Positions 13,819-35,441 of a stretch of 64,000 nt of DNA are shown in pieces. The DNA comes from Naegleria gruberi. Lineage: Eukaryota. Numbering within the stretch: the stretch's first letter is position 1; the number at the start of each line of letters is the position of its first letter. A model generated the notes under the pieces. That model saw only the letters and a program-made list of their open reading frames with translations. It searched no databases and had not been told where the DNA came from. A program made the position numbers and the translations under genes. The stretch lies in NCBI GenBank assembly GCA_000004985.1, contig GG738862.1. One strand, written 5' to 3'.

Positions 13819-14522
13819 TTACACAGATTAAGGATCATCCAGATATCACACAAACTCTTGCTGATTTCCAGGAGCAATTGTTGTTTAAGGCTGAAGCAAA
13901 ATATGCTGAAATCATTGTTAAATTAAAAAATAGAATTGATGAAATAGAGAGTAATCAAATTAACGACAAGAAGGATAGGAAAGAATATGAGAGAAGGACC
14001 AATGAAACAATTATTGAACAAAAAAACCTGTTAATAAGATTGAAAAAAGATACTAATTCTCTTGAAAGAAAAATTGAAGAACATAAAAGAAAATTCGAAG
14101 AGCAAGCAATGAAGTTAAAGAATCAAAAAGATGAATATGAAGCAAAATTCGAAGAGCAAGCAACGAAGTTAAAGAATCAAAAAGATGAATATGAAACAAA
14201 ATTAGCTGATTTGAAAAAGAAGCTAAAAGAACACGAAACAGGAATACAGGAACTAAAGGAACAACACAAAACACAATTAGAGGAGCAAATGGATCAATAT
14301 GAAACACAATTAGAGGAGCAATTAAATCAATACCAAGAACAATTAGAAGAGGAAAGAGCTTACAAAACAAAATTAGAGGAGCAAATTGAAAGTATGGGCA
14401 AAAATATTCAATCATTGTCGTCTAAACTAGCTAATTATGAATTTGATAGTTTGGTAAAGCCAAACAAAAGATGTTCCTGTGATTGTTCAATATGTAAGGG
14501 ATGTCAAAAACCTGTTTTTTAA
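13815..14522 (+). CDS. coiled-coil protein (235 aa) with C-terminal Cys cluster; likely continuation of the 12925 ORF
   Basis: Heptad-rich sequence with an 18-aa unit duplicated in tandem (FEEQAMKLKNQKDEYEAK / FEEQATKLKNQKDEYETK; 54-nt units at ~14093-14200). C-terminus CSCDCSICKGCQKPVF. The 3' two-thirds lies inside the duplicated segment (copy A). Confidence 0.5.
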   Translation: MITQIKDHPDITQTLADFQEQLLFKAEAKYAEIIVKLKNRIDEIESNQINDKKDRKEYERRTNETIIEQKNLLIRLKKDTNSLERKIEEHKRKFEEQAMKLKNQKDEYEAKFEEQATKLKNQKDEYETKLADLKKKLKEHETGIQELKEQHKTQLEEQMDQYETQLEEQLNQYQEQLEEERAYKTKLEEQIESMGKNIQSLSSKLANYEFDSLVKPNKRCSCDCSICKGCQKPVF

Positions 14523-14525
14523 TTC

Positions 14526-15591
14526 TTGACAATCTTCTATCCAATAAATACATTTCTCGTATTGATTAATCTTGTTTTATTCTCAATACTATTTAACAGA
14601 GGTTCTTTCGTGTTGTCACAATTTTTTCTGAGGAAACCTTTTCAGATGTTTCATTTCAAGGTCGAAATTGATTATTGTCATGTTTTTTTCCAAAAAAATG
14701 TTCATTCCGATTCCTTCATGGAGTGATGATCATCACGTGGTGAATAATCCTCCGATAAATGATGATCAATCCAGTGATGATCATGAAACGTCTACAAACA
14801 ATTTAAATCATGTAAAATTTCCATCATATGATTATAGTTACCTTATTGAAAAACAAAAATTGGAGAATACATTTAATACTGCATTTATTGGTGGTAATGA
14901 TCAAACAGAGTTTAAGAAGTACGATAAATGTATTAGTAATTTTAAATTGGATTCAGTGTCATCTCACTATTGCGAGAATAGTAAACCATACATATCAAAT
15001 AACAAATACTTGAATGAACTCTATCATATTTATATTAATGATGAAAAAAAAATTGAATTGAATAATATTAATCATTTTTACAATAATACTTGGAAGAATG
15101 TTAATTTGGAAAATGAGTGTATTCATTCTATTGAAAATCATTTAAGATCAGTTACTGTTTATGGAAAAAATACTAATTTTTTTGTTTTAAATACATTTGA
15201 TAGATTTAAGGAGATGTTTGATCAAGTTGTTAAAAAAAATGAAATTTCGAATGCAGAATTAAGTAACTTTATATTTATTGGTGGTAATGGCCAAAGTTTC
15301 TTTTATGAATTAAATAGTAATGTACTCATTAATGCACACCAACGGGGTAATGACCATTATTATTGCCTAAAAGGTTGTTTATCGGAAGGTGAATTTGTTG
15401 AATATCTTTGTGTTTACAATTTATCCTATTTGAAATATTCTGTATTTATTTTAACTAATTTTGGAAGAGTTTTATATCAAAAAGAACACAAAATGGTTGA
15501 ACTTGAAACAAAATTGAAATTTATTAAAATAATAGAGAGCAGAATGGGATTTAATTTATTTTATTGTATAATGAGTGATAATTATTTATAA
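14526..15591 (+). CDS. hypothetical protein (copy A); reading frame interrupted near 14680 relative to copy B
   Basis: Track ORFs 14526-14726 and 14668-15591 overlap in different frames. Copy B (29657-) reads MTIFYP...EIDYWSLFFSKKMFIPIPSWSDDHH... as one frame. Copy A has TGTCATG where copy B has TGGTCTTTG, a 2-nt difference. The first in-frame ATGs are MFHFKVEIDY (~14646) and MFFSKKMFIPIPS (~14680). No recognisable domain. Confidence 0.3.
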
Positions 15592-15783
15592 GGGATTTCA
15601 TCAAAAGGAAAAGATTTCACTTTAACAAAATCAAATATAATCAAAAGAAAAGTTAAAAATATTAAATATTTAAAGTGTGGAACATTACTGATACAAACCT
15701 TATCTAATGAATGGATATTTAAAACTAACAATGATTTAAAAACGGTATTTCCATTTTTTAAATCAAAAAAGGACTTCTCTGAT

Positions 15784-16197
15784 TTGGAGGTGCACAACAT
15801 TTTGGGTCTGATTGCCAAATCAAGAAAAAGAAGAACACTACTAGATAACTTATTACCATCATGTATAGAAATAGTTGGAGATAGTGTAAATTCTATTTGT
15901 TTTCTATTACAAGATTATACACTTTATATATCAAATGAAGTTAATCAAAAACATAAGAAAATTTATTCTGTAAATTTCTTAAAATTAAATTTAATAGATA
16001 TTGGAATTCCATTAAAAGAATTAAGTTCAACCTCATTCCAAGATAGAAATTTAATTATTAAAAATAGAGATGGAAACATATTGTTTGGAATTGAAAAAAT
16101 ACCTAAATTAACACATTCCTTAATTTCACATTGCAAATTATTATTTGAAAAATTGAAATTGAATATTTTAACTGATATTGACATTATTTTATGTTAA
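15784..16197 (+). CDS. hypothetical ORF lacking any ATG (possible downstream exon or continuation of the 14526-15591 gene)
   Basis: 137 codons open from a GTG with no internal Met. It is in the same frame as 14668-15591. It is conserved in copy B (30330-30833), where a ~520-nt deletion brings it next to the upstream ORF. Confidence 0.25.
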   Translation: MEVHNILGLIAKSRKRRTLLDNLLPSCIEIVGDSVNSICFLLQDYTLYISNEVNQKHKKIYSVNFLKLNLIDIGIPLKELSSTSFQDRNLIIKNRDGNILFGIEKIPKLTHSLISHCKLLFEKLKLNILTDIDIILC

Positions 16198-16367
16198 TCA
16201 ATTTTTGATTTGTTGATAGAGGGAAGAGACAGGAAAATACAGCACGCATGGTACCTTCGCTGTAAATCACACAAAAAATTATTTAATTTAAATAATCTTT
16301 TAATTTAAACTATTGAAAGGAAAAGAAAATAAAGGAATTAAATAATTAAATTAAAGATATTACAAAC

Positions 16368-18302
16368 ATGATGCGCTTGCAAAAGTTAAAAAAAATGGGA
16401 AAACGAAAACATTCAAAAATTTCAAAGGAAAAGAAAAATATTCATCAAAGGGAGGAAAAGTCTGCACCAGGAGTTGTTATGACTAATTTGCCAGATGGAG
16501 CATCATTACAAATTTCTACAAAAAAGAAAAAGATGTCTCATGCTTCTTCTACTACTCCGAAGAATGATCAAATTGGATTGGAAATGATTGAAAAATGGCA
16601 GCAAATTTTGAGTTTGCAAGATACACTCACCCTGATTCTGGGTTACATTCCCGAATATTTATTGGAGAGAACAATGAGATTTGTTAATAGGGATTTTTAT
16701 CTTGCATCCTCTGTTGCTTGGAGAGAGAATATTCGAAGTTTGAAAATTCATGCATCATCACTCAAGGAAATAGAGATTGGTATTAAAAGATGGGAAAAAC
16801 TCAAGAATTTGAAAGATGTAAAGATTTCGTTTACTGATTTTGATATATGCTATGAGTTTGATGTTTGTTGCTTGAGTCATTTGGGATTTGAAAAAATTGG
16901 AGTTGTTAATACCACATCAATATTTTCCAAATCTCTTGTTGACACTAAATGGGTTGAAACTTTGAGATATTTACAAATTGATATTCATCAACAATATTTT
17001 ACTGCCTTGTTTGACTTGAATTTACACACTTTGGTTGTACAATTTCTTGAATTGGATGATAGTGAATTAATTATTGGAAAGGATGATAAGCCTTTATTTA
17101 AAAGTTTAACCCATCTCGATTACTCGAGTATAGCATTCAATAACATGGATGAATTTTTGAATAGACTTGTTAACCTTAAAAAATTGAGAAATGGTGATGA
17201 TGACATGAGTATTGAGAATATCAAATTACCTAATTTGAAACACTATAATTGTATGCATGAATTAATGGGGATAGAAGAGGTATTTCCAAAGTTAGAATCT
17301 CTAAAATCATATTCTAGTTTTTCAACAGCTAACGTGACAGGAGCAATCTCCCTAAAAACTTTAAAATCGGTAACCCTTAGTTTAGAATCAAAAACGATTA
17401 GCTCTATTCCAGATGCACTGTTTAATTTACCACTCCTTGAAAAGTTGTCATTGCTTGTCTACTGCTCCAGTCTAACAAAATGTTCAAAAATTAACCCAAA
17501 ACCATTGGATAATTTGAAAAAGGTAAAGCTTGTATTTTTTGAATACGAGAACGGTGAGCTTCCAATATCATTCTTTCATTTCAGAAAATGTAGCAATATT
17601 GAAAAAATTAGATTTGAAGAGGAAAGTCAAAAGGTATTAGTGGATATGAATGATTTTTCAAATTTTCCATTATTGAAAAGTCTAGCAGTAACAGCTGGAT
17701 CTGCTTCTAACTGGAATAGTCCTATTTGCACTCTGGAATCATTGGCAATTAATGTAAAAAAACAATGCTCAGTTACACTCACAGGACTAGACAAACTGAA
17801 GCGTTTGGAATATGTATCACAAAATATGAATAGTCTGGTTCAATATCTAAATGATAACTCCAATGATTGTATTAGAGATTTGAATATTTCTGGAAAGGAT
17901 ATTTCAAAGTTCACATCATTTCCCTGTTATTTGGAAACCCTCACCATTACAAACATGTATCTAAAAGAAATTAATGAGAGATTTGTGAACATTGTCAATA
18001 ACCAAACCAACCTTAGAAAACTAGTCATTGAGGAATCCAAATTCGACCTGGTTCCACTCTCGGAATCGCTCACTTGTCTCATCCATCAAATTAGCAAAAT
18101 ACAATTGAGTGGTGAATGCTATCCTATACCATACTCTGAATCCAAATATATTACCAATTTAATCAAAGTCCTATCAATATATGACTCCAAGAAAATAGAT
18201 CTCAAACTCAGTGGTTTTAATTATACATTCTCAAATCAATCAACTGGATATCTCATCTCTCAAATCAATTCCCGTTTTACAACAATTTCATTTACCTCAT
18301 GA
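16368..18302 (+). CDS. F-box-like / leucine-rich-repeat-like protein (644 aa)
   Basis: ATG at 16368 (MMRLQKLKKMGKRK, basic N-terminus). F-box-like segment LSLQDTLTLILGYIPEYLLERTMRFVNRDFYLASSVAW. Downstream irregular LRR/FBD-like repeats (LKSVTLSLES, LEKLSLLVYCSSL, LRKLVIEESKFDL). A near-identical copy lies at 30972-. Confidence 0.55.
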   Translation: MMRLQKLKKMGKRKHSKISKEKKNIHQREEKSAPGVVMTNLPDGASLQISTKKKKMSHASSTTPKNDQIGLEMIEKWQQILSLQDTLTLILGYIPEYLLERTMRFVNRDFYLASSVAWRENIRSLKIHASSLKEIEIGIKRWEKLKNLKDVKISFTDFDICYEFDVCCLSHLGFEKIGVVNTTSIFSKSLVDTKWVETLRYLQIDIHQQYFTALFDLNLHTLVVQFLELDDSELIIGKDDKPLFKSLTHLDYSSIAFNNMDEFLNRLVNLKKLRNGDDDMSIENIKLPNLKHYNCMHELMGIEEVFPKLESLKSYSSFSTANVTGAISLKTLKSVTLSLESKTISSIPDALFNLPLLEKLSLLVYCSSLTKCSKINPKPLDNLKKVKLVFFEYENGELPISFFHFRKCSNIEKIRFEEESQKVLVDMNDFSNFPLLKSLAVTAGSASNWNSPICTLESLAINVKKQCSVTLTGLDKLKRLEYVSQNMNSLVQYLNDNSNDCIRDLNISGKDISKFTSFPCYLETLTITNMYLKEINERFVNIVNNQTNLRKLVIEESKFDLVPLSESLTCLIHQISKIQLSGECYPIPYSESKYITNLIKVLSIYDSKKIDLKLSGFNYTFSNQSTGYLISQINSRFTTISFTS

Positions 18303-18555
18303 TTGGAATTTTAATAATTTCAAGTAAGATTCAAGTCCACTCATAATTTATTCCTATGCATTGTATTAAGATAACTTAAACAAAATTATTTGTAATTTCA
18401 TTTCCATTTAGTTCTTGAGTATATCATTTTCTAGGACGAGGAAACTTTCAATTCAGTCTTACATTCAAGATGTACCTTCATATTTGAGAATGAGATACAC
18501 CGATGTCAGAATAATGGGGAAGATTTTCTCCAACACTAACTATTGCTGGAATATT

Positions 18556-20240
18556 TCAATTGTCTGGAGTGTAATCTTTAAATTCCCTCTTCACATGATC
18601 CAAAACTTCATTGACATTGACAATCAATTTGAGATCATCACACATAATTGGAATGTATCGAATTCCCAACGATCTTGATCCACACCAAAAATCTCCAGGC
18701 CAACCATAGATCCACCCAATTTCCATGATAAACTTAATTTTTTCTCGGTTGACTGCATTCATGTTAGCGAGCCCAGCACCATGAGGAGCAATGATAGCAA
18801 GTGCTCCATAGAATGCAACACCAATGTCAATAAATGATTCTAGTTTTCCTAATTTGACAGGAATATATCAATATTTAAAGGCGTTGTAAACTCTTTCAAG
18901 CTGTTGATCATTTCGTCTTGATTAGTAATCATTCTATTACCAATATCTGATCGATCCACAACCAGAATATATTCTCTAGGATTTTGTTGAATTGGATTTG
19001 GTAACTTTTTAAAAAATTTCGAATAAATTGTCGAAACTATTCTCATTACAATATCAGGTGTTAAAGCAGCGTAATCATCCTTCGAATGTAAGAAATAAAC
19101 TCTCTTTCCAATATAATAATGACCCACTCTAGCCCAAATTATCTTTCTCTTTGGATGTATAATTCCCAGCTCTTTAAAAGATTCAATAATTCGTCTATTC
19201 TTTCCAATATCATTCATCAGAATAGGAATATGGAGAGGTAAGAAATAACTCATAAAAACTATTCTCGGTAAAACTTCAATTGGAAAATGACCAGCAGCTG
19301 TTGGATTATACGAAACTCCAACCATTGCAAACATTGGTTCAAACTTAACTGAAGCTTGATAATCAAACTTGAGCGAATGTGGAGTTGACATGATTAGGAT
19401 ATTACCATTCTTATCAAATAAACTTCCTGTAACGTGTCTATTAGAAACTCCAAAATCATAAATTCCATCCTCAATTGACAAAATTCCGAAATTTAAATTT
19501 GGTTTGAAACACCAAGGTCTTGAAAAGAAGACTTTGCTTTCGTTTTTCTTTATGGTGGATTCCTCACAAATAGAACATAAATGGTTCTGACAATTGTTGG
19601 GACAATACTTTCGTCTGGATTCCTCTGAAACTATTGGATACGAAACGAAATCGTCTCTAAATTCAACATTGTGTGCAAAGACCATATGTACCAATAGAGT
19701 TGGTAATTTCTTACTAATTTCATATCGTTTTGTTGTTGGATTAAATATTATCGAATAGATAGTTTCGTCCTCATGAAAATCATGTTTAAACTTTCCATTC
19801 GATTGACTTGTATCCAAAGCACTCGTTAATTGTGAGAAGAATATCCTTTTCAAATGACTATTTGATGGTTTTGACAAGAACTCAAAGGAAAGAAGTGTGA
19901 ATTCGTTGTCATCTGTTGACCAAATTTCTATTAAACTTTTTCCTCTATTTTCATCACAATTACTTTCAATGAGTGATTTTAATGATGGATAATGATGTAA
20001 TTCATCTGAATTTAGAATACCCTGACTGTAGTATTCGTATTCGTGAGGTAGGAGAGGAAGCTTTTCATCCTTGTGTAAATGATATGTGTAATCGTGCCAC
20101 ATGTCAAAGTTTGTTGAACATGTTAATTGTTGTGTGGGAAGATGAAGAGAAGTCCGTATTGAATATCTATAGGCAACCAGAATGAAGCTTGCCAGGATTA
20201 AAAGACATCCCATGAAAAGATATTTCGAATGAGGTTTCAT
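18556..20240 (-). CDS. glycosyltransferase family 61 / DUF563-type (EOGT/xylosyltransferase-like), type II membrane topology; frame disrupted near 18850
   Basis: First ATG at ~20238-20240 (MKPHSKYLFMGCLLILASFILVAY signal-anchor). GT61 hallmarks are present: AAGHFPIEVLPRI, YILVVDRSDIGNRMITNQDEMINSL. After ...NIDIFLSN-TAG the conserved C-terminal block continues in the -1 frame (LGKLESFIDIGVAFYGALAIIAPHGAGLANMNAV..., HGAGL motif). This is track ORF 18556-18762. No plausible intron restores the frame without deleting the conserved R...N..E block. Confidence 0.6.
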
Positions 20241-21156: not shown

Positions 21157-22332
21157 ATGGGCAAACATAATAAGAAAAAGAACAATCAAGCAAAACAACA
21201 ACACCAACAACAAGAACCACCAAACAAGAAAAACAAGACCGAACCATCTTCCCAACCAATTTATGATCTGAGTAGCTCTGCAAGTGATGCAAACTCATCC
21301 GACACAACAGTCGTTTCTCCAGTTTCAATTAATTCTCCTTCCATTGGTCCTTTAAATGTTGTTTCCAATGATCAGCAAAAGAATTTTTATGAAGATATGG
21401 CTAAGACAGCATCCTCTTTAGAAAAAATGATGACTTTATTTGGTTCTTATAACCAGAAATTGGAACAATCCTCAAAGATTGTTAATGCATCTTCCATTAA
21501 TTTGGAAAAATCTGCAAAGGAATTGGAAAAATTGTGTCAAATCAAAGCAGAAAATGAAAAATTGAAGAAAGAGGCAGCTACTCACATGAAAGAAATACAA
21601 GATAATGAAACCAAGTTAAAGAGATTGAACCAAGCCGAACAAAAGAATGTTGCGTTGGAAAAAGAAAACTCCACTTTGAAGGAACAAGCGAAATCTGTTA
21701 TGGAAAAAGTAAACCAAATCCAAACAGAAAACGAGAAGTTAACACAAGAAAACAAGAGGATTTTAGAAAATGAAATTCAATGTTTGGAATCTATTAGAAG
21801 TAAGGATATGGAAATTCTTTCATTGAAGAATAGAAAGGATTTTCAAGTATCAGATTCCAAGACAGAGGAGTTAGTTTCAGAGATGAGTCGTCTTACAGAT
21901 AATGCTAATAATTTGGTGTTTGATCTCATAGTTAATCTCAATGAAGATGATGAAACCTCTAAGTGGGTAGAAATGGTTCTTTCAACAGTGATCAACAAAA
22001 GCAGTCAACTATCAGAAGAGGAATTGAGTGAAGCTATTCTTGCCAAAAGTTATACAAAAGCATGGCAAGAATTCGCAAGTGCTCTTAACAACAACCCACA
22101 TCTGCAAGCTAAGATGAAGAATGATGCACCATTCCAATCAATCTTCCAACAACTCGTCAAGTCAAGTTGCAGGATTGTTGACATTTGCGAGAAATCAACT
22201 GTCCCAAAATTCAAACGTGACTGGTCATCATCATCTGACAAAGTCTGCATTGTGCCAGCAGTTGTAATTGACACGGACAACAAACGTGTTGTTGTGGTTG
22301 ATGGTCGTCACGTTGAAAAGTCGTCAAAATAA
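21157..22332 (+). CDS. coiled-coil protein, member of a local paralog family with a shared C-terminal domain (391 aa)
   Basis: ATG at 21157. Long heptad region (EKLKKEAATHMKEIQDNETKLKRLNQAEQKNVALEKENSTLKEQ...). The C-terminal segment SDSKTEELVSEMSRLTDNANNLVFDLIVNL...CRIVDICEKSTVPKFKRDWSSSSDKVCIVPAVVIDTDNKRVVVVDG is homologous to 32921-33631 and shares the [IF]PK[FI]..W...C..P motif with the other members. Confidence 0.6.
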   Translation: MGKHNKKKNNQAKQQHQQQEPPNKKNKTEPSSQPIYDLSSSASDANSSDTTVVSPVSINSPSIGPLNVVSNDQQKNFYEDMAKTASSLEKMMTLFGSYNQKLEQSSKIVNASSINLEKSAKELEKLCQIKAENEKLKKEAATHMKEIQDNETKLKRLNQAEQKNVALEKENSTLKEQAKSVMEKVNQIQTENEKLTQENKRILENEIQCLESIRSKDMEILSLKNRKDFQVSDSKTEELVSEMSRLTDNANNLVFDLIVNLNEDDETSKWVEMVLSTVINKSSQLSEEELSEAILAKSYTKAWQEFASALNNNPHLQAKMKNDAPFQSIFQQLVKSSCRIVDICEKSTVPKFKRDWSSSSDKVCIVPAVVIDTDNKRVVVVDGRHVEKSSK

Positions 22333-22353
22333 ACAAAAATTCACGAATTAAAA

Positions 22354-23895: not shown

Positions 23896-23935
23896 TAGAA
23901 TGATGTAAACTAATTGTATTATTACATTACCCAAT

Positions 23936-25198
23936 TTATTTTTTCATTCTCTTGATTCTCTTGAATGCTGTTCCAATCAGCTCAGCCTTCTTATTTTCTC
24001 CAAGAACTAAAGCAGGAAGCACTGAAACAATCTCCTCTTCAGGTTGACTGGAATTCTCTTCTGAGATCTCTTTAACATCAACATAATCTACATAACCGAT
24101 AAGTTTGAAGCTTTTGGAGGAATAGATTTCACCATCAATTCCAATCCAAAGAAGAGAAATCTTTGGGAATCGCAATGATTGTGTTGCTTGTTCCAAATCT
24201 TTGGCCATTGAAACAATTTCAGAAAAGATGGATTCTCCAGTGAGGAGCATGTTCTTGCATTCATCGTTTTCTGCAGAGTTTAGGAATTTGTTCCAAGAGA
24301 TTTCAAACAGTTCCTTCTTTTCAATAGTTGGATTTTCAAATAAGCATTGGAAAATTGTATTGGAAAGGTAGTAAAGATACTTTTCATAGATTTCAGGAAG
24401 TCCAGTTTCCATTATGAAATCAAAACATTTTGAATCAATATTGGTTATCAATTTTGTACATTTCTCTACAACTTCTTGAGCTTGACTGTTGATGACCTCA
24501 CCAGAGTTGAGAAGTTCCATTGATCTTTGTAATGTTTGGAGATTGAGAATAGCTGCTTCTTTCTCTTTTATCAATTCTTGAATTCTTTCATCTTTTTCTT
24601 TGATTTCAATCTCAGCTTTCATTCTTGATTGATTCTCTTGGTTTAGTTCTCTTCTCACCTTCTCTAATTCTGTATGAGTTTGAGCTAGCTCTTTTGTTAG
24701 TGTGCTGAATCTGATTTCTAACGACTCGTTTTCATTCTTTTGCTGCTTCAATTCATCAACCAATTTTGACATAAAATTGTCAATCAAATTTACCTTTTCA
24801 ACAAGGCCATCAGAAGAGCTAACTTTGATATTTAGTTTCTCAATAATTTTATCAACTGCCTTTGTGATATTCTCATTGTCTAATGTAACACTTTTAAACT
24901 TCTCTTTAATTTCATTGGTAATAGTGATGGAGCCAGATCCTTGATAGGAAATCCTTACGAAAGGTTCACTGTTGGTTGTTGATTTCTCAAGCAGATCACT
25001 AGTTTCCTTTAGAATATCTAATAGTGTATCTCTCTTTACAATCGAATAACCTTCATTTAGAACAATGGATGAAAAATAAGTTTGTTTATCTGGAACTAGA
25101 TATTGTACATTGCAAAGAAGTTGCAACTCTTGCTTTATTTCTTCCTCTGGAGTAATATTTTTCTTGGCAGTATCAGAGGTAGTAGCTTTCTGTCCCAT
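23936..25198 (-). CDS. coiled-coil protein, paralog family member (420 aa)
   Basis: ATG at 25196-25198. Coiled coil (LKQQKNENESLEIRFSTLTKELAQTHTELEKVRRELNQENQSRMKAEIEIKEKDERIQELIKEKEAAILNLQ). C-terminal FPKISLLWIGIDGEIYSSKSFKLIGYVDYVDV resembles the family motif. Confidence 0.55.
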   Translation of the reverse strand: MGQKATTSDTAKKNITPEEEIKQELQLLCNVQYLVPDKQTYFSSIVLNEGYSIVKRDTLLDILKETSDLLEKSTTNSEPFVRISYQGSGSITITNEIKEKFKSVTLDNENITKAVDKIIEKLNIKVSSSDGLVEKVNLIDNFMSKLVDELKQQKNENESLEIRFSTLTKELAQTHTELEKVRRELNQENQSRMKAEIEIKEKDERIQELIKEKEAAILNLQTLQRSMELLNSGEVINSQAQEVVEKCTKLITNIDSKCFDFIMETGLPEIYEKYLYYLSNTIFQCLFENPTIEKKELFEISWNKFLNSAENDECKNMLLTGESIFSEIVSMAKDLEQATQSLRFPKISLLWIGIDGEIYSSKSFKLIGYVDYVDVKEISEENSSQPEEEIVSVLPALVLGENKKAELIGTAFKRIKRMKK

Positions 25199-25293
25199 TT
25201 TTTATTGCTTGGGAATTGTCAAATACGTCAAATGTCTAAGAGTCATATTTTGCATGTCATCACGTTACAACTATTAATTCACCTTTCAAAAAA

Positions 25294-27683
25294 ATGTACA
25301 TTGCTGATACACTCCACAAGTCCATCGTAGCATTCACCAAATCAACCCATGACAACGTTCAACCAGCACACTTGGAAGAACTCTTAAATTCTCTCCATTC
25401 AAACTTGGTTCAATTGACCAATTCTGAAGGAATGACAAGTTTGATCATTAGAGAATTTGCTCTACATGTCATTCTTCAATGGTTTTCAAAAGGAGAAGAT
25501 TTGGAAAATTTGCTCTCTGGAAATTGTAAATTTCAAGTTCTTTACATTTTGAAAAGCTTTTTGAAAGTCTCAGATCCAAATAATGTTGTTTGTAGCAGTG
25601 TTATTGTCTTGTTGCATTTGAAAAGAAGTTTTATGGAAAGATCTAAATTTAAATCGATTTTGGAAGAACCAGAGAGTTTGTCTAAACTTTTAGACTTGAA
25701 GAAACAATTCGAATCAATGATTGAAGAGCCGCTTCAGGTAAGTTTCATGTAGAAGGTTAAATTCATTAATTCAATAATTAGGGAAGTGGAAACTTTGATT
25801 TATTGATCAACATGTTGAAAAAATCCAAAGATTCAACAGAGAGAGAATTAATTATTGATATAATTACATCTCTTCCATCAAAAGTTCTTAAAATGATTTC
25901 GAATAGAAGCATGTCATATATTATTGAATTGGCCAAATCAATGGAAATTGAAAAGTCAGACGAAAATGATATTCATTGGGCTGATAAGATTACAACTCCA
26001 ATTTCTGTGAATCGAGCAGGGACAGAGCAAAAGAAGTGTATTCAATGTCTATGTGAAAAATTAGACGAAAAAGTTAGTCAATTACTTGCTGATTTCTCAT
26101 ATTGGGTTATTGAAACTAAAGGTGTATTTAGAGATTCCATTAGTGTTTTCATTGAATGCTTCGAAAGATATGGAATTGACAATGACAAGTTGTCACAAGA
26201 ACAGCAAGCAACAAATTTAGTAAGATTACTCTCCCGTATGAAATTCTTATCAGAATCAGGGTTCACATTGCCCAAATCGTTAGGTGAATTCATCAATAGA
26301 AGAAAAAATATAGTCATGTTTATTAAGAGCAACGATGAAATGAGAGTTTATTTTATTGAACATTTTGGTGAAAAGTATTTGACAATAGGTCAAGAAAATC
26401 AAATCAATACTCCTAAAACAGATCAAGAGCTTTTCAAATATGTTAAACCAACAATCAATTCATCCTCTATATCAATGCTCATCTCCCAGAATTTGGATTT
26501 TGAAACTCAACAAAAAGCTCAGCAATTCGAAACAACCCTGCAAGACATTAGACAAGATTCAGATAGTGATGTAATCATGCACGATGAATTCAATCTTCCA
26601 ATTGTTTGTAGCTCTTCAGACATAATGCCAAGTAGTAATACTCACCCACCTGCTACACACCAAACAGTCAACTTGTTAACAAATGGTTTATTGAATGAAA
26701 ATGGTTACAATACAAGATTAGAAAAACAGGAACCTCAAGTAATTCAACCTTTGAAAGTTCAATCATTCAGAAAATCTTGTGAAATTGAATCTTTTCCTTT
26801 TCAGGGTGACTTTACATTTGTTCAAGAAATTACCAGTTCCTTATTTAGTAACGTTTCAGATGTTAAGATTTCATACAAGAACAAATACATTATTGTTAGC
26901 AATAGTAATAATGGCAAAAATCAATTGCTTTTCTTTGATTTAAATACCAAAGAGTTAAAGAAGAACATTTCCTTTTTCGACAACATTAATGGAATAGCTA
27001 TTGAGAGAAATTTTGATGGACGAAACGATGCCATCATCTTGTCCACTGAAGAAAAGGTCCTCAAGTTCGATATTTCCAAACTAGTTCTCAATGGCACCGA
27101 CAAGAACTATCTATGGAGCAAAAAGTTGGAAATCACCTCTCGTTTTGCAGTCAAGAACGCTAAACTAGCAGCACTAACAATTCTCCACTCACCACACACA
27201 GAGAAAAAAGTAGAAAATGTTGTTTTCGTTTGTGATACCTCTTTCAATTGTATTCATATTTTGAGAAGCTCTGATGGAAAGATTTTAAAGAGAATTGGTG
27301 GAATTAACTCTACTGATAAGATGTCAATGTTTCATCCTAATTGGATTGACATTGATAGAGAGAGCTCTGAATTGGTAATATCAGAAACTATGTCGAATAA
27401 TGTTAGAGTGTTATTGGAAAGTTCTGAAACTAAAACTATTGAGACAAGATGTTTGCCAACCAAATTTAAACAAGTTGGAGGTATTGTATATGACAATTAT
27501 ACAAAAAACATTATAGTTTCAGATGTGATTGAGAATAGTATTCAAATATTCAATGCTATTGGAAACAGGGTGAATATATTGGCAGGGCAGGTCCATCATC
27601 CAAAGAGTTTATGTATCAATGAAGAAACAGGTGAATTGTATGTAAACGATTCAGGAAACAAGAGAATTGTAATTTACAAATAA
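25294..27683 (+). CDS. hypothetical protein with C-terminal NHL-like beta-propeller repeats (2 exons, ~781 aa)
   Basis: Exon 1 25294-25737 (ATG at 25294, ends ...EEPLQ). A 44-nt intron (GTAAGTTTCATG...AATAATTAG) spans ~25738-25781. Exon 2 is 25782-27683, in phase (GSGNFDLLINMLKKSKD...). The C-terminal third has NHL-like units (NNVRVLLESS, NSIQIFNAIG, DSGNKRIVIYK). Track ORFs 25294-25752 and 25803-27683 are the two exons. Confidence 0.6.
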
Positions 27684-27700
27684 TTTGTTTCTAATAAAAC

Positions 27701-28789
27701 TTAGTGTAAATACTTTACTTCTAGAACTCTTCCTTTCACGTGTACATTCTCTCCAAAATAAAGGGTTGGAAATAAACAAAAGAATTCTACCTTTTCAATT
27801 TGTGTGCCAGAACCGATAGTTACAGAACCATCGATTAAATGATTGTGTTTAGTTGACTTTTCGAACCATTCTAGACGAATGTTATATCCAAGCTCGAGAT
27901 TGTGAATTCTCTCAATAATACCATTCATAAATACTCGAAGTTCATGTAAGTGTTTTTCTGGAACCATTTTGTGAATATTATTAGTATTGATCAATTGGAT
28001 TAACTTTTGTTCTGCAAAGGAGACTAAAGTTAACGAATCATTCTGAGCTTGTGAAAATGCAGAACATATTGACATACACAAACTCTTCTCAATAAGAGAA
28101 CAAGTTTCTTCGCTAATATTAGGAATTGATAATAAGTAATTTACAACATCATTCTGAATGTTACTGATCTCTCTCGATGCCCTATCTAGTATCAATTCCA
28201 CATTCGAATTTGAAACTAATCCTTTCGAAATTAGATTTTCAGATAATTCTTTTTGTTGCGTGAGTGAATCCAACCAAGCCAAAAGTTCCAATTCTTTTTT
28301 TCGTAATAGTTCAATTTCTTCATCTTTCTTCTTTATCATTTCTTCTTGTTGTTCCATTCGAATCTTGATAGATTTTACAAGACTATCAGCTGAGCACTGT
28401 TGCAATTGATCAGAATCCAAAGAGCTTGTTTCAATTATTGCTAACCCTTCCGAACACAATTGTTCATCCAACAAAATTAGAAATTTTAATTCTGAATTAT
28501 TTTCACTACTCTCGCAAAAACATGAAACATTTGCTGGAGTTTGGTTTCTTGTTTTTAGGTACTTGATGATTAGTTGAGTGTTGGGATTTTCCATCTCGTT
28601 TTGAAAAAGGCTCCAAGCTTTTGCCATCTGTTTCCACATTTTTTTAATAATAGATTTGACAAGTTGTTGCAATTCCCAACTGTCACTTATCATATGTCTT
28701 CTCCCAAGTCTCAAAAACAAACGTGATGTCAAAGTGTAAAACAAAGAAAAAAACAACTCAATGGTACACATAGCCCGTACTATTACCAT
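27701..28789 (-). CDS. coiled-coil protein, paralog family member; true start probably an internal Met (~28696)
   Basis: The upstream ATG at 28787-28789 overlaps the divergent + gene start at 28761. The first 31 residues (MVIVRAMCTIELFF...) read like antisense translation; MISDSWELQQ... is the more plausible start. Coiled coil (MEQQEEMIKKKDEEIELLRKKELELLAWLDSL). C-terminus YNIRLEWF...FFCLFPTLYFGENVHVKGRVLEVKYLH. Confidence 0.55.
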   Translation of the reverse strand: MVIVRAMCTIELFFSLFYTLTSRLFLRLGRRHMISDSWELQQLVKSIIKKMWKQMAKAWSLFQNEMENPNTQLIIKYLKTRNQTPANVSCFCESSENNSELKFLILLDEQLCSEGLAIIETSSLDSDQLQQCSADSLVKSIKIRMEQQEEMIKKKDEEIELLRKKELELLAWLDSLTQQKELSENLISKGLVSNSNVELILDRASREISNIQNDVVNYLLSIPNISEETCSLIEKSLCMSICSAFSQAQNDSLTLVSFAEQKLIQLINTNNIHKMVPEKHLHELRVFMNGIIERIHNLELGYNIRLEWFEKSTKHNHLIDGSVTIGSGTQIEKVEFFCLFPTLYFGENVHVKGRVLEVKYLH

Positions 28790-29258
28790 AGCTGTTGACT
28801 TTGGTACTTCTCGCTCTGGTTTCGCCTACATTAACCATGGTGAAGATGTGAAATCTGACATTAAAACCTACAAGAATTGGGACGGAGCAGCTGTTCCATA
28901 CGATAAGAATCTAACCCAGATATTATATAATCCAGATGGTGAACCAATTAGCTTTGGTTACAATGCCCCAAAGGAGTACAGCGAACTGATCTACCACCCT
29001 TCATGTGACATTTCTCAATATACCTTGTTCAAGTATTTCAAGATGCAATTACAAAAGAAAACTAATCCAGATGGTATTTTAAGAAATGAAGTAACTGGTA
29101 GGGAATTTGATCTTGTCGAAGTTATTGCTGATTACTTGGTTTATATTCGAAAGATTATTGAAAAAATTACAGGTATCGATTTGACTATTCACAAGGAGAA
29201 TGTTCGTTGGTGTTTTACAGTTCCAGCTATTGGGAAGATGAAGAGAAACAACAAACTA
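28761..29258 (+). CDS. HSPA12-like atypical Hsp70 ATPase, N-terminal fragment truncated by assembly gap
   Basis: MVHIARTITIAVDFGTSRSGFAY matches the HSPA12 N-terminal phosphate-1 motif. VRWCFTVPAIGK matches the HSPA12 RWVITVPAIW block. The frame runs straight into the N run at 29259. Confidence 0.65.
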
Positions 29259-29308
29259 NNNNNNNNNNNNNNNNNNNNNNNNNNNNNNNNNNNNNNNNNN
29301 NNNNNNNN
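29259..29308. other. assembly gap (50 N)
   Basis: A run of n characters; it truncates the HSPA12-like ORF on the left and precedes duplicated copy B. Confidence 0.95.
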
Positions 29309-29341
29309 ATAAAAAGATGATATGAAACAAAATTAGCTGAT

Positions 29342-29653
29342 TTGAAAAAGAAGCTAAAAGAACACGAAACAGGAATACAGGAACTAAAGGAACAACACAA
29401 AACACAATTAGAGGAGCAAATGGATCAATATGAAACACAATTAGAGGAGCAATTAAATCAATACCAAGAACAATTAGAAGAGGAAAGAGCTTACAAAACA
29501 AAATTAGAGGAGCAAATTGAAAGTATGGGCAAAAATATTCAATCATTGTCGTCTAAACTAGCTAATTATGAATTTGATAGTTTGGTAAAGCCAAACAAAA
29601 GATGTTCCTGTGATTGTTCAATATGTAAGGGATGTCAAAAACCTGTTTTTTAA
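29342..29653 (+). CDS. 5'-truncated copy of the coiled-coil gene 3' end (copy B of 13815-14522)
   Basis: Identical C-terminal 103 aa (...EHETGIQELKEQHKTQLEEQ...CSCDCSICKGCQKPVF). The upstream part is missing at the gap. Confidence 0.3.
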   Translation: MKKKLKEHETGIQELKEQHKTQLEEQMDQYETQLEEQLNQYQEQLEEERAYKTKLEEQIESMGKNIQSLSSKLANYEFDSLVKPNKRCSCDCSICKGCQKPVF

Positions 29654-29656
29654 TTC

Positions 29657-30358
29657 TTGACAATCTTCTATCCAATAAATACATTTCTCGTATTGATTAA
29701 TCTTGTTTTATTCTCAATACTATTTAACAGAGGTTCTTTCGTGTTGTCACAATTTTTTCTGAGGAAACCTTTTCAGATGTTTCATTTCAAGGTCGAAATT
29801 GATTATTGGTCTTTGTTTTTTTCCAAAAAAATGTTCATTCCGATTCCTTCATGGAGTGATGATCATCACGTGGTGAATAATCCTCCGATAAATGATGATC
29901 AATCCAGTGATGATCATGAAACGTCTACAAACAATTTAAATCATGTAAAATTTCCATCATATGATTATAGTTACCTTATTGAAAAACAAAAATTGGAGAA
30001 TACATTTAATACTGCATTTATTGGTGGTAATGATCAAACAGAGTTTAAGAAGTATGATAAATGTATTAGTAATTTTAAATTGGATTCAGTGTCATCTCAC
30101 TATTGCGAGAATAGTAAACCATACATATCAAATAACAAATACTTGAATGAACTCTATCATATTTATATTAATGATGAAAAAAAAATTGAATTGAATAATA
30201 TTAATCATTTTTACAATAATACTTGGAAGAATGTTAATTTGGAAAATGGGTGTATTCATTCTATTGAAAATCATTTAAGATCAGTTACTGTTTATGGAAA
30301 AAATACTAATTTTTTTGTTTTAAATACATTTGATAGATTTAAGGAGATGGATATTTAA
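29657..30358 (+). CDS. hypothetical protein, copy B of 14526-15591 (frame intact at 5' end, truncated by internal deletion)
   Basis: One continuous frame MTIFYP...EIDYWSLFFSKKMFIPIPSWSDDHH...DRFKEMDI-stop. The last residues arise from the ~520-nt deletion junction. Confidence 0.3.
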   Translation: MTIFYPINTFLVLINLVLFSILFNRGSFVLSQFFLRKPFQMFHFKVEIDYWSLFFSKKMFIPIPSWSDDHHVVNNPPINDDQSSDDHETSTNNLNHVKFPSYDYSYLIEKQKLENTFNTAFIGGNDQTEFKKYDKCISNFKLDSVSSHYCENSKPYISNNKYLNELYHIYINDEKKIELNNINHFYNNTWKNVNLENGCIHSIENHLRSVTVYGKNTNFFVLNTFDRFKEMDI

Positions 30359-30833
30359 AACTAACAATGATTTAAAAACGGTATTTCCATTTTTTAAATC
30401 AAAAAAGGACTTCTCTGATTTGGAGGTGCACAACATTTTGGGTCTGATTGCCAAATCAAGAAAAAGAAGAACACTACTAGATAACTTATTACCATCATGT
30501 ATAGAAATAGTTGGAGATAGTGTAAATTCTATTTGTTTTCTATTACAAGATTATACACTTTATATATCAAATGAAGTTAATCAAAAGCATAAGAAAATTT
30601 ATTCTGTAAATTTCTTAAAATTAAATTTAATAGATATTGGAATTCCATTAAAAGAATTAAGTTCAACCTCATTCCAAGATAGAAATTTAATTATTAAAAA
30701 TAGAGATGGAAACATATTGTTTGGAATTGAAAAAATACCCAAATTAACACATTCCTTAATTTCACATTGCAAATTATTATTTGAAAAATTGAAATTGAAT
30801 ATTTTAACTGATATTGACATTATTTTATGTTAA
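30330..30833 (+). CDS. hypothetical ORF, copy B of 15784-16197
   Basis: Same sequence as copy A, with an upstream extension created by the deletion. It has no internal ATG. Confidence 0.25.
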   Translation: MIDLRRWIFKTNNDLKTVFPFFKSKKDFSDLEVHNILGLIAKSRKRRTLLDNLLPSCIEIVGDSVNSICFLLQDYTLYISNEVNQKHKKIYSVNFLKLNLIDIGIPLKELSSTSFQDRNLIIKNRDGNILFGIEKIPKLTHSLISHCKLLFEKLKLNILTDIDIILC

Positions 30834-30971
30834 TTATTTTACAACTAACTAGAAATTTTTGATTTGTTGATAGAGGGAAGAGACAGGGAAAATACAGCAC
30901 GCATGGTACCTTCTGTAAATCACAACAATTAAAATACAAAAAATTGTGTAAATAATTATAATATTACAAAC

Positions 30972-32870
30972 ATGATGCGCTTGCAAAAGTTAAAAAAAAT
31001 GGGAAAACGAAAACATTCAAAAATTTCAAAGGAAAAGAAAAATATTCATCAAAGGGAGGAAAAGTCTGCACCAGGAGTTGTTATGACTAATTTGCCAGAT
31101 GGAGCATCATTACAAATTTCTACAAAAAAGAAAAAGATGTCTCATGCTTCTTCTACTACTCCGAAGAATGATCAAATTGGATTGGAAATGATTGAAAAAT
31201 GGCAGCAAATTTTGAGTTTGCAAGATACACTCACCCTGATTCTGGGTTACATTCCCGAATATTTATTGGAGAGAACAATGAGATTTGTTAATAGGGATTT
31301 TTATCTTGCATCCTCTGTTGCTTGGAGAGAGAATATTCGAAGTTTGAAAATTCATGCATCATCACTCAAGGAAATAGAGATTGGTATTAAAAGATGGGAA
31401 AAACTCAAGAATTTGAAAGATGTAAAGATTTCGTTTACTGATTTTGATATATGCTATGAGTTTGATGTTTGTTGCTTGAGTCATTTGGGATTTGAAAAAA
31501 TTGGAGTTGTTAATACCACATCAATATTTTCCAAATCTCTTGTTGACACTAAATGGGTTGAAACTTTGAGATATTTACAAATTGATATTCATCAACAATA
31601 TTTTACTGCCTTGTTTGACTTGAATTTACACACTTTGGTTGTACAATTTCTTGAATTGGATGATAGTGAATTAATTATTGGAAAGGATGATAAGCCTTTA
31701 TTTAAAAGTTTAACCCATCTCGATTACTCGAGTATAGCATTCAATAACATGGATGAATTTTTGAATAGACTTGTTAACCTTAAAAAATTGAGAAATGGTG
31801 ATGATGACATGAGTATTGAGAATATCAAATTACCTAATTTGAAACACTATAATTGTATGCATGAATTAATGGGGATAGAAGAGGTATTTCCAAAGTTAGA
31901 ATCTCTAAAATCATATTCTAGTTTTTCAACAGCTAACGTGACAGGAGCAATCTCCCTAAAAACTTTAAAATCGGTAACCCTTAGTTTAGAATCAAAAACG
32001 ATTAGCTCTATTCCAGATGCACTGTTTAATTTACCACTCCTTGAAAAGTTGTCATTGCTTGTCTACTGCTCCAGTCTAACAAAATGTTCAAAAATTAACC
32101 CAAAACCATTGGATAATTTGAAAAAGGTAAAGCTTGTATTTTTTGAATACGAGAACGGTGAGCTTCCAATATCATTCTTTCATTTCAGAAAATGTAGCAA
32201 TATTGAAAAAATTAGATTTGAAGAGGAAAGTCAAAAGGTATTAGTGGATATGAATGATTTTTCAAATTTTCCATTATTGAAAAGTCTAGCAGTAACAGCT
32301 GGATCTGCTTCTAACTGGAATAGTCCTATTTGCACTCTGGAATCATTGGCAATTAATGTAAAAAAACAATGCTCAGTTACACTCACAGGACTAGACAAAC
32401 TGAAGCGTTTGGAATATGTATCACAAAATATGAATAGTCTGGTTCAATATCTAAATGATAACTCTAATGATTGTATTAGAGATTTGAATATTTCTGGAAA
32501 GGATATTTCAAAGTTCACATCATTTCCCTGTTGTTTGGAAACCCTCACCATTACACACATGTATCTAAAAGAAATTAATGAGAGATTTGTGAACATTGTC
32601 AAGAACCAAACCAACCTTAGAAAACTAGTCATTGAGGAATCCAAATTCGACCTGGTTCCACTCTTGGAATCGCTCACTTGTCTCATCCATCAAATTAGCA
32701 AAATACAATTGAGTGGTGAATGCTATCCTATACCATACTCTGAATCCAAATATATTACCAATTTACTCAAAGTCATATCAATATATGACTCCAAGAAAAT
32801 AGATCTCAAACTCAGTGGTTTTAATTATACATTCTCAAATCAATCAACTGGATATCTCATCTCTCAAATC
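30972..32870 (+). CDS. F-box-like/LRR-like protein, copy B (3' end lost in gap)
   Basis: About 99% identical to 16368-18302, with 5-6 amino-acid substitutions. The frame runs into the N run at 32871. Confidence 0.5.
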
Positions 32871-32920
32871 NNNNNNNNNNNNNNNNNNNNNNNNNNNNNN
32901 NNNNNNNNNNNNNNNNNNNN
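32871..32920. other. assembly gap (50 N)
   Basis: A run of n characters between the truncated copy-B gene and a 5'-truncated coiled-coil paralog. Confidence 0.95.
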
Positions 32921-33631: not shown

Positions 33632-33637
33632 TAAAGG

Positions 33638-35281: not shown

Positions 35282-35441
35282 TTTTTTTAAATATTGGAAG
35301 TAAATTGACGTGTTGACATTGAAGGATGGTTGGGAATTGTCAAAGACGTGTGACAAAACTTGACGAGTGATACAAAAACGTGGTGGCAATTAATTGTATC
35401 AATTTTGAGCTGCTATTATGCTTGTCCAATTGGTTTATTAT

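What the first reader, a model, noticed from the sequence alone, without database searches (positions are those of the whole stretch)
14176..32920. Near-identical ~4 kb segmental duplication whose second copy is bounded by two N gaps that truncate flanking genes: either a recent duplication or a mis-scaffolded repeat contig
Copy A (14176-18266) and copy B (29309-32870) are collinear and >98% identical. Copy B is flanked on both sides by 50-N gaps. The left gap cuts an HSPA12-like gene after 166 codons, and the right gap removes the 5' half of a coiled-coil paralog. Each copy carries its own disruptive lesion. Copy A has a 2-nt frame change near 14680. Copy B has a ~520-nt internal deletion (ATG microhomology at the junction), a 1-nt indel near its start, and a few nonsynonymous substitutions in the F-box/LRR-like gene. 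The left breakpoint lies inside the coiled-coil gene 13815-14522. Either a real recent duplication exists (paralogs diverging by indels), or the assembler placed a repeat-derived contig into a gap inside the HSPA12/coiled-coil cluster.
Basis: seen in the sequence. Interest (0 to 1): 0.6.

Follow-up and report, generated by a model that had tools for sequence, protein, structure and literature searches.

The report
Probable false duplication from split alleles
The second copy of this roughly 4 kb segment is a small, gap-bounded contig in the 2010 Sanger draft of Naegleria gruberi; it is most likely the other allele of the first copy dropped into an unrelated sequencing gap, so it is an assembly artefact rather than a new gene duplication.

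Summary
The window is Naegleria gruberi NEG-M, a Sanger draft. Segment 14176-18266 recurs as a 3,562-bp contig (29309-32870) bounded by two 50-N runs. It is collinear end to end and about 99% identical in aligned columns. It lacks 497 nt and has several small indels.

The duplication itself is probably not real.
- A syntenic contig from a related Naegleria runs from the HSP70-like gene (814 aa there) straight into the coiled-coil paralog. About 2.1 kb of that sequence is missing from the window, exactly where copy B sits, and B is unrelated to it.
- NEG-M has the complete coiled-coil paralog (NAEGRDRAFT_76913) on an unplaced 2,782-bp scaffold.
- None of the four contig ends shows a junction. 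All read on into their own gene. Three of them carry single-base deletions.
- The A/B differences are patchy: 0 in 1,493 bp, then 7 in 406 bp, plus an indel-rich spacer. This fits the published mosaic heterozygosity of this genome (0.58% on average).

Best reading: an allelic contig mis-scaffolded into a real gap (about 0.68). A real, possibly heterozygous, duplication is not excluded (about 0.17). Two JGI gene models are by-products. Interest is low.

The parts
14176..18266 (+). Copy A. This is the resident locus inside a long gap-free contig. It holds the 3' half of the coiled-coil gene, the 'middle' gene, a spacer and the LRR-like gene up to 36 nt before its stop.
   Evidence: Self-BLAST. 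An independent metagenome contig, L001, follows A from 15707 to 18849, past the end of the repeat.
13815..14522 (+). Coiled-coil gene (235 aa ORF). Copy B starts at the equivalent of its codon ~121.
   Evidence: ORF list. Only a weak apolipoprotein-like coiled-coil hit in Pfam.
14079..14203 (+). Tandem repeat, 54 bp x 2.3, inside the coiled-coil gene. The left end of contig B maps inside it.
   Evidence: Tandem Repeats Finder.
14677..14680 (+). Complex A/B difference (2-nt indel plus 3 substitutions), 18 nt upstream of the shared ATG. Not a coding lesion.
   Evidence: JGI model EFC45602.1 starts at the equivalent ATG, 29831.
14698..16197 (+). 'Middle' gene, copy A. It is a 500-codon frame with one in-frame TAA at 15589-15591. 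No Pfam family.
   Evidence: Translation. Pfam.
15214..15710 (+). The 497 nt present in A and absent from B. ATG microhomology at the junction. The loss shifts the frame in B.
16198..16367 (+). Spacer that is highly variable between A, B and the other strain (L001). It holds five indel events and about 19 mismatched columns.
16368..18302 (+). LRR-like gene, copy A (644 aa; EFC45597.1 / NAEGRDRAFT_48349).
   Evidence: Fold search finds LRR solenoids.
28761..29258 (+). 5' fragment (166 codons) of an HSP70-like gene at the end of the left contig. It is still homologous to its ortholog at the very last base. A 1-nt deletion lies about 28 nt before the end.
   Evidence: 27% identity to the neighbouring HSP70-like gene. 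78% nucleotide identity to L002 up to base 29258. Ortholog of 814 aa with HSP70 and vWA domains.
29259..29308 (.). Left gap, 50 N.
29309..32870 (+). Contig B (3,562 bp). It aligns end to end with copy A. Probably the second allele of A.
29831..30358 (+). Truncated 'middle' gene of B (175 aa), annotated as EFC45602.1 / NAEGRDRAFT_66458.
   Evidence: Exact look-up. Translation.
30972..32870 (+). LRR-like gene of B, cut 12 codons before its stop by the contig end. JGI model EFC45603.1 (773 aa) splices it across the gap onto the coiled-coil paralog.
32871..32920 (.). Right gap, 50 N.
32921..33631 (+). Coiled-coil paralog, codons 22-258. The first ~20 nt contain single-A deletions. Residues 28-258 are identical to NAEGRDRAFT_76913 on a separate 2,782-bp scaffold.

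Best explanation
Contig B (29309-32870) is most likely not a second locus. It is the other allele of 14176-18266 in the heterozygous diploid strain NEG-M.

Proposed sequence of events:
1. The Sanger assembler could not merge reads that carry the 497-nt deletion, the rearranged spacer and the SNP cluster at the 3' end of the LRR gene, so it built them into a separate small contig.
2. The scaffolder could not place that contig on top of copy A. It put it, in the same orientation, into the nearest open gap of the scaffold, between the contig ending at 29258 and the one starting at 32921.
3. That gap is a real sequencing gap. It should hold about 2.1 kb: the remaining ~617 codons of an HSP70-like/vWA gene, a short spacer and the first 21 codons of the coiled-coil paralog.
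4. The two 50-N runs are then placeholders, not measured distances.

Shown:
- the identity and extent of the copies;
- the missing conserved sequence;
- the existence in NEG-M of the intact 5' end of the coiled-coil paralog on an unplaced scaffold;
- the lack of any junction at the contig ends;
- the patchy divergence between the copies.

Inferred:
- that B is allelic rather than paralogous;
- how the scaffolder came to place it.
For: 1. Source. The LRR-like genes of A and B are N. gruberi EFC45597.1 and EFC45603.1 on a 502,116-bp scaffold. The assembly is a Sanger draft, GCA_000004985 (PMC8040595). [quoted passage not shown]

2. Form. B is bounded by gaps and aligns over its whole length to nearby sequence inside another contig. 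This is the 'duplicated contained contig' signature of falsely duplicated haplotypes, whose median identity is 98.1% (PMC2864568).

3. Synteny. The related Naegleria contig L002 is collinear with window 21367-29247 and then 33000-33592. In L002 the 814-aa HSP70/vWA gene is followed after 186 bp by the coiled-coil paralog. Nothing in L002 resembles copy A or B.

4. Contig ends. The left contig is still HSP70-like at its last base. The right contig starts at codon 22 of the coiled-coil paralog. Both ends of B are A-like to the last base. No junction sequence exists. Three of the four ends carry single-base deletions of the kind expected from low-quality read ends (an inference).

5. Unplaced scaffold. 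NEG-M holds the complete coiled-coil paralog (258 aa, EFC35431.1) on a 2,782-bp scaffold. Its residues 28-258 are identical to the window. It is long enough to span most of the ~2.1 kb gap.

6. Extent of B. B spans the block of A/B differences (14677-18171) plus about 500 bp on the left and 95 bp on the right. That is less than one Sanger read length on each side (from general knowledge).

7. Patchy divergence. There are 0 differences in 1,493 bp, then 7 in 406 bp, 0.4% in the middle gene, and an indel-rich spacer.

8. Third strain. Relative to L001, the closest pair changes along the segment. B matches L001 at 16199-16295. A matches L001 at 16297-16353 and at 17861-18171. A and B match each other against L001 at 16375-17220. 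Two B-specific residues match the distant paralog P0002. This is the pattern of recombining haplotypes.
Against: - No reads, mate pairs or depth could be examined, so allelism is inferred and not shown.
- A scaffolder normally needs mate-pair links to place a contig. B lies about 11 kb beyond the right end of A, further than short-insert mates would suggest.
- The last 24 nt of the left contig resemble the A sequence where B begins, with empirical p of 0.004-0.035, found post hoc. This could be microhomology at a real junction.
- Patchy identity can also arise from gene conversion between nearby paralogs.
- The DNA of the 2,782-bp scaffold could not be retrieved, so its content upstream of the coiled-coil paralog is unknown.
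- L002 is a different species (about 78% nucleotide identity), so it shows the ancestral arrangement, not that of NEG-M.
Confidence: 0.68

Rival explanations
1. A real and recent segmental duplication sits at this site, on both haplotypes or on only one. A block of at least 3.6 kb (coiled-coil 3' half, middle gene, LRR-like gene) was copied in direct orientation about 15 kb downstream. It either went into the spacer of the HSP70-like / coiled-coil-paralog pair or replaced about 2.1 kb there. The contigs break at the junctions because reads fork there. If the duplication is heterozygous, the unplaced 2,782-bp scaffold is the unrearranged haplotype.
For: - The scaffolder placed B here, in the same orientation as A.
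- There is weak similarity between the end of the left contig and the A sequence at B's start.
- An unplaced scaffold with the intact coiled-coil paralog is also what a heterozygous structural variant would leave behind.
- Nearby direct duplications do occur in this window: the formate/nitrite transporter pair at 70.7% identity.
Against: - No junction is present at any of the four contig ends. The left contig keeps reading HSP70-like sequence to its last base.
- If nothing was deleted at the site, about 2.1 kb of conserved genic sequence plus both junctions must be unsequenced. If that sequence was deleted, a conserved 814-aa gene was destroyed.
- The divergence is far from uniform (0/1,493 against 7/406), so a single recent copying event is not enough without added gene conversion.
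- The level of divergence matches the published allelic polymorphism.
- The insertion is absent from the syntenic relative.
Confidence: 0.17
2. B is a true recent paralog located elsewhere in the NEG-M genome, and it was scaffolded into this gap by mistake.
For: - The gene family has other members. P0002, at 51% identity, lies on another N. gruberi scaffold.
- B's ends show no link to its present neighbours.
Against: - It requires both a new duplication and a misplacement.
- Both ends of B are still A-like, so no foreign flank is seen.
- The divergence fits the allelic level.
- Placement close to A in the same orientation is what shared mate pairs with A's flanks would give.
Confidence: 0.1
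3. The repeated block is a mobile element that inserted a second copy.
For: None beyond the presence of two copies.
Against: - No inverted repeats of 100 nt or more in the window.
- No transposase or integrase family in any of its ORFs.
- Both ends fall inside host ORFs.
- No target-site duplication can be seen.
- Only two copies exist in 64 kb.
Confidence: 0.01

Closest known systems
False segmental duplication from split haplotypes: the 'duplicated contained contig' of Kelley & Salzberg 2010 (PMC2864568)
   Same: - A small contig bounded by gaps aligns in full, at about 98-99% identity, to nearby sequence inside a larger contig.
- The assembly is a Sanger whole-genome shotgun of a heterozygous diploid.
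- Spurious extra gene models result.
   Different: - The defining mate-pair test could not be run here.
- The contig is larger than most of their cases, which are mostly under 2 kb, and it carries a 497-nt structural difference.
- The case here rests on synteny, contig-end anatomy and an unplaced scaffold instead of mate pairs.
Haplotigs and false gene gains in heterozygous assemblies (Ko et al. 2022, PMC9516828; seen in the result list, abstract only)
   Same: Separately assembled alleles are annotated as extra genes. Here these are EFC45602.1 and the chimeric EFC45603.1.
   Different: That work concerns vertebrate assemblies and uses newer reference assemblies to prove the error. No newer NEG-M assembly was available through the tools.
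A genuine tandem gene duplication in the same window (35534-36586 vs 37332-38372)
   Same: Two direct copies that carry homologous genes (formate/nitrite transporter N-termini), a short distance apart.
   Different: The two copies are 70.7% identical, lie in gap-free sequence and each has its own flanks. Copy B has none of these marks of an established duplication.

Membership tests
False duplication from split haplotypes (duplicated contained contig) | A contig bounded by gaps that aligns over essentially its whole length at high identity (at least ~96%) to nearby sequence inside another contig | tested here: met
   B (29309-32870) aligns from its third base (29311) to its last base with 14179-18266. 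Identity is 99.4% and 96.5% in the two blocks.
False duplication from split haplotypes (duplicated contained contig) | The source organism is heterozygous, with allelic divergence comparable to the divergence between the copies | tested here: met
   [quoted passage not shown] A/B SNP density is 0-0.4% in most coding parts and 1.7% in the last 406 nt.
False duplication from split haplotypes (duplicated contained contig) | [quoted passage not shown] | not testable with these tools
   No read or mate-pair data are accessible. NEG-M is not in the contig collection.
False duplication from split haplotypes (duplicated contained contig) | Read depth of the two copies sums to single-locus depth | not testable with these tools
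   No reads available.
False duplication from split haplotypes (duplicated contained contig) | The position occupied by the contig should hold other sequence | tested here: met
   Synteny with L002 predicts about 2.1 kb of HSP70/vWA gene, spacer and coiled-coil 5' end. NEG-M has the coiled-coil 5' end on an unplaced scaffold.
Real segmental duplication | Each copy has its own sequenced junctions with distinct flanking DNA | tested here: not met
   Copy A has contiguous flanks. Copy B has none: both of its ends and both neighbouring contig ends stop inside their own genes.
Real segmental duplication | The second copy is present at the same site in related genomes, or is supported by independent assemblies | tested here: not met
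   It is absent from the syntenic contig L002 of a related species. The only contig from another strain (L001) continues into copy A's right flank. This does not exclude an event private to NEG-M.
Real segmental duplication | Divergence is roughly uniform along the copies, as expected from one copying event | tested here: not met
   0 differences in 1,493 bp, next to 7 in 406 bp and an indel-rich 170-bp spacer. Gene conversion could rescue the model.
Transposable element | Terminal repeats, target-site duplication, transposase or integrase | tested here: not met
   No inverted repeats of 100 nt or more. No such Pfam domains. The ends lie inside host ORFs.
   No Pfam hit even at E<=0.5. The AlphaFold model has pLDDT 58.6. 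Its best PDB folds are COI1 and D3 (F-box-LRR), with E=5e-6 but TM of about 0.33. The N-terminal region is modelled at low confidence.
   - The fragment itself has no Pfam hit.
- Its L002 ortholog hits HSP70 (2e-11) and a C-terminal vWA domain (5.3e-7).
- The neighbouring paralog hits HSP70 at 3.2e-5.
- HSPA12 subfamily membership was not tested.

The most novel reading that the evidence does not exclude
NEG-M really carries a very young duplication of a three-gene block, perhaps on one haplotype only. The block was inserted into, or replaced part of, the HSP70-like/vWA and coiled-coil gene pair. The left junction would have formed at the short imperfect homology AAGATGAA..GAAACAA. The other haplotype would survive as the unplaced 2,782-bp scaffold. 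That would be a snapshot of a segregating structural variant that destroys a conserved gene.
Probability: 0.17. Interest if true: 0.25.

Novelty: not a real feature. Interest (0 to 1): 0.1.

Why it matters
The main value is as a correction to a widely used reference, GCA_000004985.
- Two N. gruberi gene models are probably artefacts: NAEGRDRAFT_66458, and NAEGRDRAFT_66459, which is a chimera spliced across an N gap.
- A conserved 814-aa-type HSP70-like/vWA gene is left unannotated because its 3' two-thirds are missing from the scaffold.
- An unplaced 2,782-bp scaffold (NAEGRDRAFT_76913) probably belongs in this gap.
- Counts of recent paralogs or gene gains in Naegleria that use this assembly would be inflated by cases like this one.

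If B is an allele, the A/B comparison also gives a worked example of allelic structural variation in NEG-M: a 497-nt frameshifting deletion and a rearranged spacer. It adds no new biology.

Tried and rejected
- **Exact-protein look-ups.** I looked for NEG-M contigs that could show reads or an independent assembly across the gaps. Queries were the LRR-like gene, P0002, P0005, the B-specific 175-aa product and the 391-aa neighbour. None is on record.
- **HSP70-like fragment.** A homolog search with the 166-aa fragment found nothing, not even an annotated NEG-M model.
- **JGI metagenome scans.** Scans with that fragment and with the LRR-like protein found no relatives.
- **Representative-library search.** I used the neighbouring HSP70-like paralog as query, hoping to find an NEG-M protein fragment from the 2,782-bp scaffold. 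The closest match to the L002 814-aa protein was a Willaertia magna protein at 51% identity. No NEG-M fragment came up.
- **Literature.** The Fritz-Laylin 2010 paper and its 2011 review are not held, so the heterozygosity figures are cited second-hand.
- **Inverted repeat as the cause of the gap.** I considered whether the two convergent HSP70-like genes form an unclonable inverted repeat. Their N-terminal parts are only 27% identical, so this has no support.
- **Overlaps at the gaps.** I tested whether contig ends overlap across the gaps. The left pair gives a weak post-hoc signal (p 0.004-0.035). The right pair gives none (p 0.45).
- **Mobile element.** Rejected.

Full report
**Source of the window.** The sequence is 33.4% G+C and packed with long ORFs. 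The 644-aa product of 16368-18302 is N. gruberi EFC45597.1 (NAEGRDRAFT_48349). The copy-B gene is part of EFC45603.1 (NAEGRDRAFT_66459). Both lie on a 502,116-bp scaffold. The assembly, GCA_000004985, is the 2010 Sanger draft of strain NEG-M (PMC8040595).

**The observation.**
- The only N runs are 29259-29308 and 32871-32920, 50 N each.
- Self-BLAST gives two collinear blocks: 14179-15216 ~ 29311-30349 (99.4%) and 15702-18266 ~ 30337-32870 (96.5% with gaps counted).
- Copy B is 3,562 bp and copy A is 4,091 bp. The 529-nt difference comes from a 497-nt deletion in B (A 15214-15710, ATG at both edges), five indel events in the spacer 16198-16367, a 2-nt indel at 14677, and single-base deletions at B's first bases.
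- The duplication is therefore really in the sequence and is far beyond chance.

**What the copies contain.**
- First comes the 3' half of a coiled-coil gene (13815-14522). B's left end falls inside a 54-bp x 2.3 tandem repeat of that gene.
- Next is a 'middle' gene with no Pfam family. In A it is a 500-codon frame (14698-16197) with one in-frame TAA at 15589-15591. In B the 497-nt loss shifts the frame and leaves a 175-aa product, which JGI annotated as EFC45602.1.
- Last is the 644-aa gene. It has no Pfam hit even at E<=0.5. A moderate AlphaFold model (pLDDT 58.6) finds F-box-LRR proteins COI1 and D3 and other LRR solenoids as best folds, at low TM-scores.
- A and B differ in this gene at 7 sites, 6 of them nonsynonymous, all in the last 406 nt. 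The first 1,493 nt are identical.

**What should lie where B lies.** A search with the protein that starts just after the right gap gave two informative hits.
- P0006 lies on a 33-kb Logan contig of a related Naegleria (L002; about 78% nucleotide identity in coding sequence; 32% G+C). L002 is collinear with window 21367-29247, gene for gene, and then with 33000-33592.
- In L002 the gene that the window truncates after 166 codons is 814 aa long, with an HSP70-like domain and a C-terminal vWA domain. It is followed after 186 bp by the coiled-coil paralog.
- About 2.1 kb of L002 (roughly 7962-10082) has no counterpart in the window. Nothing in the fetched 20.8 kb of L002 resembles copy A or B.
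- So the ancestral arrangement has no such insert, and B does not supply the missing sequence.
- P0005 is an N. gruberi protein (EFC35431.1, NAEGRDRAFT_76913, 258 aa). It is the complete coiled-coil paralog, and its residues 28-258 are identical to the window. It is encoded on a separate 2,782-bp scaffold.
- Hence the window lacks only 21 codons of that gene. NEG-M does contain its 5' end, in a piece the assembler left unplaced. A scaffold of that size could span most of the 2.1-kb gap. Its DNA could not be fetched.

**Anatomy of the contig ends.**
- The left contig aligns to the L002 HSP70-like gene up to base 29258. A 1-nt deletion about 28 nt from the end spoils the frame: the true reading is ...PAIWEDEEKQQT.
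- The right contig begins at codon 22 of the coiled-coil paralog. It has about three single-A deletions in its first 20 nt: ISQIQKT instead of ISQNNRKT.
- B begins with two single-base deletions in 12 nt and is A-like from its first to its last base.
- None of the four ends contains a junction between unlike sequences. The ends with single-base deletions look like ordinary low-quality read ends. B's link to its neighbours therefore rests entirely on the scaffolder.
- If the coiled-coil 5' end is present on the same molecule as B, the right gap must exceed 50 nt (36 nt of LRR gene plus 63 nt of paralog). In that case 50 N is a placeholder, not a measurement.

**Allele or paralog?**
- A/B SNP density is 0.39-0.41% in the middle gene, 0 in 1,493 nt, 1.7% in the next 406 nt, and very high with indels in the 170-bp spacer. 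A single recent copying event followed by uniform divergence does not fit this.
- An independent metagenome contig from another strain (L001; 97.5% identical to A) follows A into its right flank as far as 18849.
- Along the segment the closest pair changes. B matches L001 at 16199-16295. A matches L001 at 16297-16353 and at 6 of 7 sites in 17861-18171. A and B match each other against L001 at 16375-17220.
- Two B-specific residues equal those of the distant paralog P0002, which suggests they are ancestral rather than new.
- Changing genealogies of this kind are what recombining haplotypes show. Paralogs would need repeated gene conversion to produce them.
- B extends about 500 bp and 95 bp beyond the outermost true A/B differences (14677 and 18171). 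This is as expected if the contig exists only because those differences blocked merging.
- The whole configuration is the 'duplicated contained contig' of Kelley & Salzberg. They found such contigs to be frequent mis-assemblies in Sanger drafts, with a median identity of 98.1% (PMC2864568).

**Against this reading.**
- I could not see reads, mates or depth.
- B lies about 11 kb beyond A's right end, further than short-insert mates alone would put it.
- The last 24 nt of the left contig resemble the A sequence at B's start (empirical p 0.004-0.035, post hoc). This could be microhomology at a true junction. The right pair shows nothing (p 0.45).
- A heterozygous real insertion, with the 2,782-bp scaffold as the other haplotype, would explain the unplaced scaffold equally well.
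- I therefore put the allelic mis-scaffold at about 0.68, a real duplication at this site at about 0.17, a real paralog from elsewhere at about 0.10, and other explanations at a few per cent.

**Consequences.**
- EFC45603.1 is a chimera. It reads the B copy of the LRR-like gene up to ...KKIDLKL and is then spliced across the N run into the coiled-coil paralog.
- EFC45602.1 is the truncated B form of the middle gene.
- The HSP70-like/vWA gene has no model at all.
- These are annotation artefacts of the assembly problem.

**Verdict.** The biology is most likely ordinary allelic variation shown as a false segmental duplication. Interest is low. The decisive tests are mate pairs of B's reads, the sequence of the 2,782-bp scaffold, read depth, and a PCR or long read across 29.2-33.0 kb.

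Noticed in passing
window 21157-35389: A cluster of coiled-coil proteins shares a C-terminal domain: 21157-22332, 22354-23895, 23936-25198(-), 27701-28789(-) and 32921-33631. The first and last are 28% identical at E=2e-20; for the other three the shared domain was judged by eye. They are interleaved with HSP70-like genes (28761->, 33638-35389(-)). The gene order is conserved in the related Naegleria contig L002.
   Followed up: partly
L002 7371-9815 (ortholog of window 28761-29258): The truncated HSP70-like gene belongs to an 814-aa type that fuses an HSP70-like ATPase to a C-terminal von Willebrand A domain (Pfam 2e-11 and 5.3e-7). Willaertia magna has 751-786-aa relatives (about 51% identical). 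The NEG-M copy has no gene model.
   Followed up: partly
window 35534-36586 and 37332-38372: A genuine older tandem duplication (70.7% identity, no gaps). Each copy encodes the N-terminus of a formate/nitrite transporter (ORFs 36368-36922(-) and 38154-38825(-)).
   Followed up: partly
window 15589-15591: A single in-frame TAA interrupts an otherwise open 500-codon frame in copy A of the middle gene. It could be a nonsense allele, a sequencing error or a very short intron. It lies inside the 497 nt missing from B.
   Followed up: partly
window 30972-33631: JGI model NAEGRDRAFT_66459 (EFC45603.1, 773 aa) is a chimera. It joins the copy-B LRR-like gene to the coiled-coil paralog through an 'intron' that contains the 50-N gap.
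   Followed up: yes
window 3615-6575 (-), repeats 3947-4778: A 986-aa teneurin-like protein with EGF and NHL repeats (Pfam EGF_TEN 5e-36, TEN_NHL 2e-31). It has internal ~210-bp tandem repeats at about 70% identity.
   Followed up: no
window 29235-29258 vs 14182-14204: The last 24 nt of the contig before the left gap resemble the copy-A sequence at the point where contig B begins (empirical p 0.004-0.035, noticed post hoc). This may be chance between Glu/Lys-rich coding stretches, or microhomology.
   Followed up: partly
L002 11053-12990 vs window 298-1018: Beyond the coiled-coil paralog, synteny between the related species and the window breaks. The next L002 gene (645 aa) matches the far left of the window on the opposite strand, and the (-) HSP70-like gene 33638-35389 has no ortholog at that position in L002.
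   Followed up: no
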